Source: the human T2T-CHM13v2.0 reference genome, Homo sapiens. From it: a stretch of DNA of 64,000 nucleotides. The stretch lies in NCBI RefSeq assembly GCF_009914755.1, contig NC_060935.1. One strand, written 5' to 3'. The notes under the pieces are model-generated. The model did not search any database. It saw only the letters and a list, made by a program, of their open reading frames with translations, and had not been told where the DNA came from. Positions 1-62,400 of the stretch are shown piece after piece (positions within the stretch are counted from its first letter, which is position 1; each line of letters starts with the position of its first letter). The translations under genes were made by a program, and so were the position numbers.

Positions 1-1996
1 TACTGACTTCTGATTTTTCAACTTAGACATCACTGATCTCTTTCTTTTGACCACTCTAGATTGCGGCATGAAAAATACCTATAGTCAAGAAAGCCAAACA
101 ATCAGAGGGCTCATGTTTTTTTTCTTTCCCTCCTTTCAGAAATCAGTTTGATATTGTCTGTTGTCAAACATCAGAAAAGTTGTGTTTCATTTATTTTGCC
201 TGATTATCTAGTTGTTTATGGCCCAAAGACAATTTCAGTAGGAGTTTATCTTTCATGGATGGCAGTGAAAATTCACTCACTAAATTTTAACTATGCTGAA
301 TCACTATGTTGAAAAATTACTCAAATTCAAAAAATATTATTTTCACTGACATGGAATTTTTTTTTGCTTACCCATAAATCATAAAATCTAAGGAACAAAA
401 TAGCTTAATGTTATTTCATCTAATGACCCTTCTTGTTTAGAATGTAGGAATCTTTAGCCAATGTCAGGCAATTGACCTTCAAGGAACTTACATTCACCAC
501 TGTATAATTATTCAACACAATCTACCAAACTACCTCTAGCAAATAACTTACGAGAAAAAAATACCAGCTGCTTTTATAAATTATGTTTTCTTATGTTTTT
601 TTTCTCATTAGATAGACAGGAGAAATGAAAAAAAATTATCCTAAGAAGATGCTCCAGTGACAGCAGTTGTTTCTTGAGATCAACTGTGAACTGCCATTTT
701 TACTTAGATGTACCAACACCCCTTCTAAGGGCATCTACACATGATTACCATCAAGTGAATGTCTTCTCTGCATTGGTGATGTTTGCTCTAAAAATAGACA
801 AACTATAAATAGCATTTTGAAATCAATAGAGTAGAAACAGGGAAATGGTAAAGCATAAGAGATCTTGACATTATTCCATAGAACACATTTGCTGTGAGGA
901 GAGAAAGTGGCTAAGGATAGGCTGATCACTAAGAATCCCAGGATTTAAGAATATGCAGAGAGGGGCATCAGGGAAAATGCCCACTTTCCTCTCAAATCAT
1001 TTTGTTCTTGGTTAGTGAGCTGCATTATATGCTTTTTTCTAGTTCTACCTACTCCTAATCCTGATTCAATCTGAACTTTTTCTGAATCCTCCGAGCACAG
1101 TAGACAGCAAACAATCCCAGATCTTTCCTCAGTGCTTTATTTTACTCAAGAGAAACTGTATTCCGGGCCTAATTTACCCAATTCTTCAAGCTACAAAGTT
1201 ATTCGAGTTCAATATACACAAAACAGTCAAATAACAAAATCTTTACTTTCTTCTATGGCTGAACTTCTCTGCATACCCAGAGACACAGAGCTCAATGCCC
1301 AGAAAATGCCACAAATTAATTAAGACAGAATTCCTATAGGTTGAAACCTGATGTAATTATTTTTAAGGCTCCGTAGGTGATCATAACGTGTAGCAAAATT
1401 AAGGATAACTACCCTAGGACCTCAGGTTCAATAAAAAATTTGAACAAAGTCCAGATGGCTAATGAAAACTCATACTTGTACAGCAACTGAATTATCTGGA
1501 AAACATTTCCATGTATATTATTGATTTTTATTTTTAAAACAGTCTTGAAAATTGATATTATAACTCTATTTTTCAGAAATAGGAGTTAACTTGTGATTGT
1601 TGGCCCAGGCTACTAGGATTTGAGATGAGATGAGCTCATGTTTTCATTGTGGGTGTAATATTTTGGAACTGCATAGATGACAAGGGAGATACCATCTCCA
1701 GGATAAAATACATCTTTAATTCCAAGAAATAAGATATACTAGTAGTGGCCTCTAAGGTAATTAAGGAAGATACGGATAGTAAAACTCCAGGTGGAGCTTT
1801 TTCCCACCTTCATGATCTCCAAAACACTCCAAAGTTGCCTGAATCCTGGAAAACATTAGAAGGAGTGAGGAGATAAAATAAGGAAAAGTAAGGAAAGAAT
1901 TCAAGATAACAAACTCAGGGGCAGATGCTTATATCTAGCCTAACCAGAAAGCCTCATATATAGCCTTCCTTAGGCTCTTCTCTTTCATCCCTGCAG

Positions 1997-2572
1997 ACCT
2001 CCCACCCGGGGAAGGAGTGAGTTTCTTGGCTACAGAAAATCACTCTACACTTTGGGAGGCTGAGGCGGGTGGATCACTTGAGGCCAGACCAGTCTGGCCA
2101 ACATGGTGAAACCCCATCTCTACTAAAAATACAAAAATTAGCCAGGCATGGTGACACACACCTGTAATCCTAGCTACTCAGGAGGCTGAAGTGGGAGAAT
2201 TGCTTGAACCCATGAGGCGGAGGTTGCAGTGAGCCAGGGTTGCGCCACTGCACTCCAGCCTGGGTGACAGAGTGAGACTCTGTCTCGAAGAAAAAAAAAA
2301 TCACTCTACAGTGACAGAGTTCATTCTCAGGGGATTAACAAAGCAACCAGATTTCCAGCTCCCTCTTTTTCTCCTCTTCCTCAGGATCTGCTTGGTCACC
2401 ATGGTGGGGAACCTGGGCATGATCTCCCTGATTTGGCTGAACTCTCAGCTTCACACTCCCACGTACTACTTTTTCAGCAATCTGTCACTCGTGGATCTCT
2501 TCTACTCCTCCATCATTACCCCTAAAATGCTGGTGAACTTTGTGCCAGAGAAAAACATCATCTCCTACGCAG
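1997..2572 (+). pseudogene. 5' fragment of an OR8A-subfamily olfactory receptor pseudogene (N-terminus to just past TM2), Alu-interrupted and 3'-truncated; possibly OR8A3P
   Basis: Translation [28 protein letters not shown]...[41 protein letters not shown] aligns to OR8A1 in this window. The upstream 'catccctgcag' acceptor is shared with OR8A1. The start codon is lost (ttggctaca vs atggctgca), an Alu sits at 2050-2299, and homology ends at 2572. Confidence 0.92.
2050..2299 (+). mobile_element. Alu (S-type), slightly 5'-truncated, inserted in the OR8A pseudogene
   Basis: Alu consensus from ctttgggaggc to the poly-A; TSD aaaatcactctaca at 2036-2049 and 2297-2310. Confidence 0.95.
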
Positions 2573-2664
2573 AGAGGGGCATCAGGGAAAATGCCCCTTT
2601 CCCTCTCAAATGATGTTGCTCTTGATGGATGAGCTGCATTATATGCTTTTTTCTAGTTCCAACC

Positions 2665-4060
2665 CATTTTATGAAGGAACTATTACCCTAATACCGAAGC
2701 CAGACAAAGACACTATAAGAAAAAAAAAAAACTATAGACCAATCTCTGATGAAAATAGATGAAAACATCCTCAACAAAACACTAGCAAACAAAATTCAAC
2801 AGTGCATTTAAAGGATCATATACCATTATCAAGTGGGATTTATCCCAGGGATGCAAGAATAGTTCAGTATAAACAAATCAATGAATATAACACATCATAT
2901 TAAAAGAATGAAGGATAATCGGCCGGGTGTGGTGGCTCACGCCTTTAATCCCAGCACTTTGGGAGGCCGAGGCAGGAAGATCACTTGAGGTCAGAAGTTC
3001 AAGACCAGCATAGGCAACATGGTAAAACTCCATCTCTACTAAAAATACAAAAATTAGCCGGATGTAGTGGCACGTGCCTAAAATCCCAGCTACTTGGGAG
3101 GCTGAGGCAGGAGAATCGTTTGAACACAGGTGGCTGAAGTTGCAGTAAGCTGAGATCGCACCACTGTACTCCAGCCTGGGTGACACTCCATCTCAAAAAA
3201 AAAAGAAAAATCACACAGTCATCTCAATGGATCCAAAAAATCATTCAACAAAATTCAACACCTTTTCATAATAAAAACACCCAATAAACTAAGTATAGAA
3301 GGAATGTATCTCAACATAATAAAACCGTAAAAGGCAAGCCCATAGGAAACATCATAATGGTGAAAAATGGAAAGGTTTCTCTCTAAGGTCTGGTACAAGG
3401 CAAGAATGCCCACCCTCACCACTTCTATTCACCATAGTATTGGAATTGCTAACTTGAGCAATTAGGCAACAAAAAGAAATAAACATCATCCAAATCAGAA
3501 AGTAATAAAATTATCTTAGTTTGCAGATGATATGATCTTATATTTGGAAAACCCTAAAACTCCACACACAAAAAACTGTTAGAGCTAATAAAAAAATTTA
3601 GTAAAGTTGCAGGATACAAAATCAACAAACATTAGCATTTCTACGCACTAACAGTGGCCTATCTAAAAAGGAAATTAAGAAAGCAATCCCACTAACAATA
3701 GTATCAAAAATAATAAAATACTTAGGAATAAACTTAAGTGAGAAAGTGAAAGACTTGCACATTGAAAACTAAAATATTGATAAATGAAGTTAAAGAAGAC
3801 ACAAATAAATGGAAAGACATCCATGTTTATGGATTGGAAATTTTAATAGTGTTAAAGTGTCCATACCACCCAAAGTTATCTACAAATTCAATACAATCTC
3901 TACCAAAATCCCAGTAGGATTTTTTTTATAGAAGTGGAAAAAAATCCTGAAATTCATATGGAACCAAAAGAAAAACAGAATCACACTTAAAAATGGTCAA
4001 AATGGTATATTTTCCATTGTGTTTTTACCACAATTAAAAATTTAAAAATAAAAAATAAAT
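2665..4060 (+). mobile_element. Old L1 (L1M-type) ORF2 fragment plus short 3' end, interrupted by an Alu
   Basis: Degenerate L1 RT-region sequence (ataccattatcaagtgggatttatcccagggatgcaag; tttgcagatgatatgatc). Confidence 0.85.
2921..3205 (+). mobile_element. Alu (S-type)
   Basis: ggccgggtgtggtggctcacgcc...dimer structure...poly-A. Confidence 0.95.
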
Positions 4061-61642: not shown

Positions 61643-61939
61643 AGGCTGGGCGCGGTGGTTCAACCCTGTAATCCCAGCACTTTTGAAAGCCGAGGTGGGA
61701 GGATCACGAGGTCGAGAGACCGAGACCATCCTGGCTAACACGGTGAAACCCCGTCTCTACTAAAAATACAAAAAATTAGCCGGACGTGGTGACAGGCGCC
61801 TGTAGTCCCAGCTACTCGGGAGGCTGAGACAGGAGAATGGCGTGAACCTGGGAGGCGGAGCTTGCAGTGAGCCGAGATGGCACCGCTGCACTCCAGCCTG
61901 GGCGACAAAGCGAGACTCCGTCTCAAAAAAAAAAAAAAA
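61643..61939 (+). mobile_element. AluY
   Basis: CpG-rich; gagaccatcctggctaacacggtgaaacc and gaatggcgtgaacc are AluY diagnostics. Confidence 0.92.
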
Positions 61940-61994
61940 ATCCTAACACAAAGGCCAAAGCCCATGTTCTTCCTAGGAAGGCCTATTTATGGTT

Positions 61995-62400
61995 ATGAGT
62001 ATGTGCACAAACTTATCAATAATTGCTTATCTTCCTCCATGGGCCGTATTCAACCAAGGCTCAGCAGTAATAGTGCCTCATGTGTAGATTTTCAATGAGA
62101 ATGTTGCCACATCCTTCAGTGTTATTAATAAATCCCATTCCTTGTTCTCAATCCCACTGCACAAAATTTACAACTAGAGAAAAACAGTTCATTAGGATGA
62201 ACTTCAAATAAGCCCCATAAGGCAGAACCGCCTTGAGACTCAAGAGCAAATAAGACCTCAGGGATTCGTTAAAAGTTGACTTTTCTCTAAGAACCTTTGA
62301 GGGTTCTTGTCTGGATGAGGCAACTCTAGGGCAAGTCCCTCTGAGTTGATGTCACTTCAGAGACTGTTGCCATGGAGGCTTCATTTCAAATGCATCTCAA
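61995..62400. promoter_or_regulatory. Paralogue of the 22550-22930 element
   Basis: Collinear similarity over ~400 bp. Confidence 0.5.

What the first reader, a model, noticed from the sequence alone, without database searches (positions are those of the whole stretch)
1320..62400. The window appears to be two collinear copies of an ancient ~39-44 kb tandem duplication unit (OR8A + PANX3 5' end + regulatory element)
Paralogous blocks occur in the same order and orientation: 1320-1850 vs 39870-40605 (ccctaggacctcaggttc vs ccttaggacctcaggtc); OR8A pseudogene vs OR8A1; 4070-4255 vs 46520-46710; 5590-6287 vs 48320-48877; 8090-9000 vs 51800-53150; 22550-22930 vs 61995-62400. Offsets run from 38.5 to 43.7 kb. 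Unit-specific insertions (U2 fragment, MST LTR, MER5A) look absent from the partner, so the duplication is probably older than them and too diverged for >90% segmental-duplication tracks. It suggests the OR8 cluster expanded by duplicating its edge together with part of the neighbouring non-OR gene.
Basis: partly seen in the sequence, partly recalled or inferred. Interest (0 to 1): 0.75.

Follow-up and report, generated by a model that had tools for sequence, protein, structure and literature searches.

The report
Dead PANX3 copies among smell genes
Beside the human bone-and-cartilage channel gene PANX3 lie four broken, unannotated copies of its front end, spaced 29-43 kb apart among smell-receptor genes; they are likely leftovers of repeated side-by-side duplication early in placental-mammal history and likely do nothing today, but they mark how this receptor cluster grew.

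Summary
The diagonal is real. After a crude repeat mask, 13 of 20 same-strand self-hits lie in order at 38.5-43.9 kb offset (p=3e-9), 60-78% identical. It is part of a larger array: about 190 kb holds five PANX3 5' ends. One is the real gene; four are broken (promoter plus exon 1; two also keep exon 2), two of them in the window (6.06 kb, 48.75 kb). Exons 3-4 have no copy, so the first break fell in intron 2. Each unit also carries OR8B- and OR8A-type DNA. Flank distance (0.5-0.6) matches that between independent MER5-like transposon copies, and such elements are both shared and unit-specific, suggesting an age before the placental radiation (inferred; no other mammal available). OR8A coding regions are far more alike than their flanks, likely from gene conversion. 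I found no clear constraint in the dead promoters. The mechanism is known; six paper searches found no description of this instance.

The parts
1295..2036 (+). Unit C, upstream of OR8A3P; begins with a MER5-like fragment shared with unit D only
   Evidence: 64%/61% to 39857-40815, 60% to 71756-72268; MER5-like profile hits 39843-39960, E=3e-4, and unit E does not align there
2037..2310 (+). Alu inserted into the first codons of OR8A3P, with a 14-bp target-site duplication
2298..2572 (+). OR8A3P, 5' third of an OR8A coding region, 90.5% identical to OR8A1 (likely converted, then truncated)
2566..2659 (+). 94-bp insert copied from 952-1045 (83 of 94 identical) where OR8A3P breaks off; near-match of about 9 bp at the left join
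4041..4255 (+). Shared intergenic block (units C, D, E)
   Evidence: 67% to 46494-46710; also matches 80724-80884
5393..6059 (+). Broken copy C of the PANX3 promoter and 5' UTR (the real gene lies outside the window: ATG 82221, exon 2 at 83644-83786)
6060..6290 (+). Broken copy C of PANX3 exon 1 coding part: ATG kept, two stops after codon 19, insertions, donor lost
6291..7640 (+). Copy C of PANX3 intron 1 and exon 2 (exon 2 remnant about 7447-7585)
   Evidence: nhmmer to 82338-83834; exon 2 alignment
7733..9024 (+). Start of unit D after the junction; D/E block at 74-78% identity, function not shown
8700..8731 (+). U2 snRNA 5' fragment with a target-site duplication of about 13 bp, absent from unit E
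   Evidence: Rfam U2 at 8700-8762, E=0.02, below gathering score; empty site
9214..9990 (-). LOC100421985, old OR8B-type pseudogene; counterpart at about -28564..-27981 in unit C
   Evidence: gene table
13394..14326 (-). OR8B12, intact; counterpart of OR8B8, OR8B9P and OR8B10P in units A-C
22555..22928 (-). Predicted OR8B12 promoter / first-exon region (counterpart of the annotated OR8B8 5' end)
   Evidence: OR8B8 5' end -83633 maps to 22687; five copies
39843..40791 (+). Unit D, upstream of OR8A1, with a D-only MER5A-like element at 40330-40520
40792..41721 (+). OR8A1, intact
48097..48752 (+). Broken copy D of the PANX3 promoter and 5' UTR; keeps the RUNX-type motif at 48341 in the same column as the real promoter
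48753..49243 (+). Broken copy D of PANX3 exon 1 (no ATG, internal deletion, frameshift, donor lost) and the start of intron 1
49281..49471 (+). D-only MER5A-like element at the end of the PANX3 piece
50227..50749 (+). Junction block shared with the A/B junction (-62488..-61942), found in neither parent flank
50874..56742 (+). Start of unit E, matching the array's left flank from about -101.5 kb on
52634..53091 (.). Solo LTR (MST type by recall) with a 5-bp target-site duplication, absent from unit D
62002..62400 (-). Orphan OR8B-type promoter block of unit E; no OR coding sequence found between 41.8 and 72.2 kb

Best explanation
The window is the middle of an array of about 190 kb in which the PANX3 promoter and first exons recur five times (four broken copies plus the real gene), each beside OR8B- and OR8A-type DNA; the array likely arose from one tandem duplication that broke in PANX3 intron 2 and was likely multiplied by unequal crossing-over before the placental radiation. 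Shown: five collinear units A-E; no copy of exons 3-4; every junction runs from PANX3-like into left-flank-like DNA; all four extra exon-1 copies are broken. Inferred step 1: a single non-homologous duplication copied the segment from about -101.5 kb to PANX3 intron 2, so the extra PANX3 was truncated at birth (about the first 108 codons). Inferred step 2: the junction-spanning unit (OR8A, PANX3 piece, junction, OR8B) went from one copy to two to four; the window's two halves are the last-split sisters C/D. Inferred step 3: units decayed separately by deletion and insertion, while OR8A coding regions were re-homogenised by gene conversion long afterwards. OR8A3P was then killed by an Alu and by a deletion patched with a templated insert. 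The PANX3 remnants are likely passengers.
For: Collinearity test. A profile of the PANX3 5' end finds exactly 5 matches in the 264 kb held; a genome-wide DNA search finds the same four extra sites plus short unrelated hits. Exon 2 remnants in A and C; exons 3-4 hit only themselves; PANX3-like sequence ends by 84330-84350. The A/B and D/E junctions share a 0.5-kb block found in neither parent flank. Trees: PANX3 piece E,((A,B)100,(C,D)93); OR8B side A,((B,C)70-100,(D,E)54-66). A+B share a deletion over the exon-1 donor and C+D share small indels. Age: flank K2P about 0.5-0.6; four independent MER5A-like copies differ by 0.52-0.65; one MER5-like piece is shared by C+D and absent from E, two others are D-only. 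Conversion: four-fold sites differ at 18 of 110 (OR8A2P/OR8A1) and 7 of 38 (OR8A3P/OR8A1) against 458 of 1209 and 309 of 818 flank sites (p=2e-6, p=0.01); identity is 84-89% inside the coding exon and 59-67% just outside.
Against: The exact breakpoint is unresolved: each junction has its own deletions, and the shared 0.5-kb block is missing at B/C and C/D. D/E pairing is weak (bootstrap 54, 66, 45), and one four-unit block favours C+E (63). Flank distances from 60%-identity alignments may be inflated by misalignment. OR8B four-fold sites are also below flank level (32/119, 34/121, 41/119), so part of the OR8A deficit may be generic. The age rests on recalled repeat names and rates, with no Dfam library and no other mammal. 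The L1 pieces on the diagonal have different 3' ends and are not evidence.
Confidence: 0.8

Rival explanations
1. Artefact: the blocks are independent insertions of common repeats that happen to line up.
For: 25% of the window is multi-copy repeat; up to 3 of 13 diagonal hits are L1-type, and those L1s look independent.
Against: The other hits include PANX3 promoter, exons and intron and blocks that genome searches found only at this locus; strict order and strand.
Confidence: 0.01
2. The array is as described, but the units arose by several independent duplications with different breakpoints, or in another order.
For: PANX3-like sequence stops at different points: 84.3 kb (A), 83.8 kb (C), 82.8 kb (D); weak D/E support.
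Against: Shared junction block at A/B and D/E; all junctions resume in the same left-flank sequence in order; phase-shifted sister pairs.
Confidence: 0.12
3. OR8A coding similarity reflects long purifying selection and slow synonymous change, not gene conversion.
For: High identity stops at the coding boundaries; OR8B four-fold sites are also below flank level; OR8A3P differs more at third positions (12/91) than at first and second (14/182).
Against: Four-fold distance is 0.18-0.21 against 0.5-0.6 in flanks; in OR8A2P first/second positions (85/618) differ nearly as much as four-fold sites (18/110).
Confidence: 0.25
4. One or more copied PANX3 promoters still work, as a secondary enhancer or promoter in bone or cartilage cells.
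For: Copy D keeps the RUNX-type motif in the same column as the real promoter; the 5' UTR region is a little better kept between dead copies (65-71%) than other parts (51-68%); a review passage says the Panx3 promoter has Runx2 sites (PMC10045377).
Against: The aligned motif is lost in A, B and C; the best 20-column invariant run among the dead copies is reached by 1098 of 5000 shuffles; the dead copies sit on longer branches than PANX3.
Confidence: 0.1

Closest known systems
Tandem expansion of OR clusters by unequal crossover, with coding-region gene conversion (review PMC1995454, passages read)
   Same: Head-to-tail paralogous units, retrotransposon-rich spacers, homogenised coding regions, birth and death of OR genes.
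   Different: [quoted passage not shown]
Ancient mammalian OR cluster architecture (PMC1794568, passages read)
   Same: OR clusters shared across placentals and often opossum.
   Different: That work is at cluster and gene level; the word PANX3 does not occur in its main text. Supplements not read.
Partial-gene duplicates / unprocessed pseudogenes such as Little ROCK and HYDIN2 (search listing and abstract starts only)
   Same: A duplication boundary inside a gene leaves exons with their introns.
   Different: Those are primate- or human-age and transcribed; these are four copies at 60-72% identity with no transcript in the gene table.
Human segmental duplications (>=1 kb, >=90% identity; definition recalled)
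   Same: Long blocks with genes, introns and intergenic DNA.
   Different: Identity 60-78%, below the definition; only the 275-bp OR8A3P/OR8A1 stretch reaches 90%.
Mouse M71 (Olfr151) / M72 (Olfr160, Or8a1b)
   Same: A pair 96% identical in protein (PMC4626375; bioRxiv 2022.05.05.489571); M72 is named Or8a1b (PMC11643621), which points to OR8A1.
   Different: Their position beside Panx3 is recalled, not checked; whether they are old units homogenised by conversion or a recent rodent duplicate is untested.

Membership tests
Tandem duplication array | Collinear same-strand paralogy beyond interspersed repeats | tested here: met
   13 of 20 plus-strand hits in one chain, p=3.4e-9
Tandem duplication array | Head-to-tail units joined by homologous junctions | tested here: inconclusive
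   Same order at all four junctions; the shared junction block is present at 2 of 4; no base-level breakpoint
Unprocessed PANX3 pseudogene fragments | Homology to PANX3 exons | tested here: met
   Exon 1 in 4 of 4 copies; exon 2 in A and C, not in D, unclear in B
Unprocessed PANX3 pseudogene fragments | Promoter and introns copied (DNA-level, not retrocopy) | tested here: met
Unprocessed PANX3 pseudogene fragments | Reading frame disabled | tested here: met
   Stops or frameshifts in 4 of 4; ATG lost in B and D; exons 3-4 absent
Unprocessed PANX3 pseudogene fragments | No functional transcript or regulatory activity | not testable with these tools
   No expression or chromatin data; no clear constraint
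Segmental duplication (>=90%) | >=1 kb at >=90% identity | tested here: not met
   60-78%; only 275 bp at 90.5%
Coding-region gene conversion among OR paralogues | Synonymous distance far below flank distance, with sharp tract edges | tested here: met
   caveat from OR8B values
Coding-region gene conversion among OR paralogues | Paralogues group by species across mammals | not testable with these tools
   No other mammalian genome held
Duplication older than the placental radiation | Units present in distant placental orders | not testable with these tools
   Indirect only: distances and MER5-like bracketing
MER5A / MST repeat names | Match to the Dfam consensus | not testable with these tools
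   Names recalled; shown only that 40330-40520 is dispersed genome-wide (39 other hits of 40 scored) and that the LTR has a 5-bp duplication

The most novel reading that the evidence does not exclude
The copied PANX3 promoter in unit D (48.1-48.8 kb), which alone keeps the aligned RUNX-type site and lies 33 kb upstream of PANX3, still acts as a shadow enhancer of PANX3 in bone or cartilage, so that an olfactory-cluster expansion gave a skeletal gene a spare control element. In addition, the mouse model receptors M71/M72 would be these same ancient units, kept 96% alike by gene conversion rather than by recent duplication.
Probability: 0.08. Interest if true: 0.65.

Novelty: new member of a known kind. 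Interest (0 to 1): 0.33.

Why it matters
It adds four unannotated PANX3 pseudogene fragments and gives the edge of the OR8 cluster a built-in ruler. The single-copy PANX3 piece counts and orders the duplications where OR coding trees are likely blurred by conversion. It lets one assign true positional orthologues among OR8A genes across mammals, including the much-used mouse M71/M72 pair, and compare one intact promoter with four decayed copies. The mechanisms themselves are textbook.

Tried and rejected
L1 pieces on the diagonal (2654-4076, 44.1-46.3 kb, 77-80 kb) were first read as one shared insertion; rejected because their 3' ends differ and the unit C piece matches another L1 better. A breakpoint in intron 1 was my first reading; rejected when exon 2 turned up inside the copied part. 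11385-11539/56868-57030 overlaps simple repeats and was dropped. The junction block 50227-50749 matched neither PANX3 downstream sequence nor the left flank above shuffles and only itself genome-wide (which also missed its known partner, so that search is insensitive). The Innexin family search of the genome returned one chr22 match and missed PANX3 itself, so it says nothing. Motif scans of the 8-kb block gave no homeodomain or O/E site at matching places in D and E; its 454/600 identity is only borderline above another D/E sister block (295/421, p=0.052). The third row of alignment A2 was a wrong stretch and was not used. The cluster beyond -160 kb was not read in detail; only the genome-wide searches cover it. 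No earlier scan findings were available. Protein database, fold and complex tools were not used, as they give no genomic context.
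Full report
Coordinates are window coordinates; values below 1 or above 64000 lie outside the window. I held the window, 160 kb upstream and 40 kb downstream.

1. Observation. A low-stringency self-BLAST gave 217 non-self hits, mostly Alu and L1. After masking positions hit 8 or more times in the 264 kb held (25% of the window; a proxy, as no repeat library is available), 20 plus-strand and 2 minus-strand hits remained. 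Thirteen of the 20 have offsets of 38.5-43.9 kb and form one collinear chain (binomial p=3.4e-9; 36 of 20,000 random placements reach 13 in any 9-kb band; reversed control 1 hit). Up to three of the 13 are L1-type or beside L1 and are discounted. Identity is 60-78%. About 3.9 of 21.6 kb aligns outside L1.

2. What the blocks are. 5393-7640 and 48097-49243 are copies of the 5' end of PANX3. The real gene has its ATG at 82221, exon 2 at 83644-83786 and the exon 3 acceptor near 87938. Two more copies lie near -36.3 kb and -65.2 kb. A profile of the five finds exactly five matches in 264 kb (it was built from them). A genome-wide DNA search returned 19 matches: self, seven pieces of these four sites, and 11 short (30-60 bp) hits elsewhere. 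Exon-1 spacing is 28.9, 42.4, 42.7 and 33.5 kb. All four copies are broken: stops or frameshifts in 4 of 4, ATG lost in B and D, no intact donor. Exon 2 remnants survive in A and C; exons 3 and 4 match only themselves. Promoter and introns were copied, so these are DNA-level duplicates. The gene table lists none of them.

3. The array. Non-repeat hits define five units. A: OR8B8, OR8A2P, PANX3 piece. B: OR8B9P, no OR8A found, piece. C: an unlisted OR remnant near -28.3 kb, OR8B10P, OR8A3P, piece. D: LOC100421985, OR8B12, OR8A1, piece. E: no OR8B, OR8Q1P, PANX3. The block 22555-22928/62002-62400 occurs in all five units; the annotated 5' end of OR8B8 maps to 22687 and 62134, so it is a predicted OR8B promoter or first exon, orphaned in E. 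The window holds the end of C, all of D and the start of E.

4. Junctions. PANX3-like sequence ends at the equivalent of 84.3 kb in A, 83.8 kb in C and 82.8 kb in D; B ends in sequence matching A's piece. Left-flank-like sequence then resumes, from -101.5 kb at D/E. A 0.5-kb block lies between the two at both A/B (-62488..-61942) and D/E (50227-50749), and matches neither parent flank. This fits one founding junction later eroded by deletions, but the breakpoint is only bracketed: in intron 2, after 84330.

5. Order. The PANX3 pieces give E,((A,B),(C,D)) with bootstrap 100 and 93 (1006 columns), backed by shared indels. The OR8B side gives A,((B,C),(D,E)): B+C has 96, 70, 100 and 100 in four blocks; D+E only 54, 66 and 45, and one block without D favours C+E at 63. 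Sisters are thus shifted by half a unit, as expected if the piece spanning the junction was doubled twice by unequal crossing-over. This order is inferred.

6. Age. Flank K2P is 0.52-0.62 for C/D and 0.50-0.58 across clades; four independent MER5A-like copies differ by 0.52-0.65. A MER5-like piece upstream of OR8A is shared by C and D and absent from E. Two MER5A-like elements are D-only, a U2 fragment is D-only and an LTR is E-only; the U2 fragment and the LTR show target-site duplications and empty partner sites. With recalled knowledge that MER5A is placental-wide and that the neutral rate is about 2e-9 per year, this suggests roughly 100-140 million years. No other mammal could be checked.

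7. OR8A coding regions. OR8A2P and OR8A1 are 84-89% identical per 100 bp inside the coding exon and 59-67% just outside. Four-fold sites differ at 18 of 110 (A/D) and 7 of 38 (C/D), against 458 of 1209 and 309 of 818 flank sites (p=1.8e-6, p=0.0099). Gene conversion confined to the coding exon is the best reading (about 70%). Against it, OR8B four-fold sites are also somewhat low (27-34%) and flank distances may be inflated. OR8A3P then took an Alu in its first codons and lost its 3' two-thirds, the break being patched with 94 bp copied from 1.6 kb upstream (83 of 94 identical).

8. Function of the remnants. Between dead copies of different clades, identity is 51-68% in promoter, coding and intron parts and 65-71% in the 5' UTR; the best invariant run is reached by 1098 of 5000 shuffles. 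The RUNX-type motif of the real promoter (81783; pattern recalled) survives in the same column only in D (48341); A has one elsewhere. The D/E block at 8073-8700 is 454/600 identical, borderline above another D/E block (p=0.052), with no shared motif positions. I read the remnants as passengers; activity is untested.

9. Literature. Six full-text searches aimed at this locus gave no paper describing PANX3 remnants or this array. Four returned nothing; one search returned one GWAS paper that names the genes (PMC4642301, listing only); of the 393 papers only 25 were listed. Most subscription papers are not held and no supplements were read, so absence from print is not shown. PMC1995454 (passages) describes tandem duplication by unequal crossover and whole-coding-region conversion as general OR mechanisms. 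PMC1794568 (12 of 40 passages) shows that OR clusters are ancient and does not mention PANX3. PMC10045377 (passages) mentions Runx2 sites in the Panx3 promoter. PMC4626375, bioRxiv 2022.05.05.489571 and PMC11643621 (passages) give the 96% M71/M72 identity and the name Or8a1b.

10. Verdict. A real, well-supported feature and a new instance of a known process. Existence of the array about 0.97; single origin and order about 0.8; pre-placental-radiation age about 0.75; conversion about 0.7; present-day function of a remnant about 0.1. Interest 0.33.

Noticed in passing
window 23145-26313: L1 with an internal inversion near 24652 and a 17-bp target-site duplication (twin-priming type); source of two ORFs on opposite strands.
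   Followed up: partly
window 4260-4296: Six telomere-type hexamers exactly where homology to unit D stops; absent from D. Possibly a healed break.
   Followed up: partly
window 2566-2659 and 952-1045: Templated 94-bp insert at the OR8A3P truncation, copied from 1.6 kb upstream, with a near-match at the left join.
   Followed up: yes
window-relative -28564..-27981 (L009): OR8B-type remnant not named in the gene table's list of nearest genes; counterpart of LOC100421985.
   Followed up: partly
window-relative -13019..-12087 (L008): OR8B10P is full length with a single premature stop, in the conserved motif after helix 3.
   Followed up: no
window-relative -48.4..-45.9 kb vs -13.1..-10.7 kb: OR8B9P and OR8B10P are 86-93% alike in coding DNA and 80-89% in a non-coding block upstream, separated by a poorly matching stretch: a likely later conversion between units B and C.
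   Followed up: partly
window 62002-62400: OR8B-type promoter block whose gene is gone; points leftward into L1-rich DNA.
   Followed up: partly
window-relative -147.9..-144.3 kb vs -133.9..-130.0 kb: A separate, recent duplication (93-96%) of two intact OR8B-type genes 14 kb apart, outside the PANX3 array.
   Followed up: no
window 32178-32945 vs 23187-23955: Two young L1 3' pieces, 96.5% identical over 769 bp.
   Followed up: no
window 40741-41721: The OR8A1 frame has an upstream in-frame ATG adding 17 residues before the annotated start at 40792.
   Followed up: no
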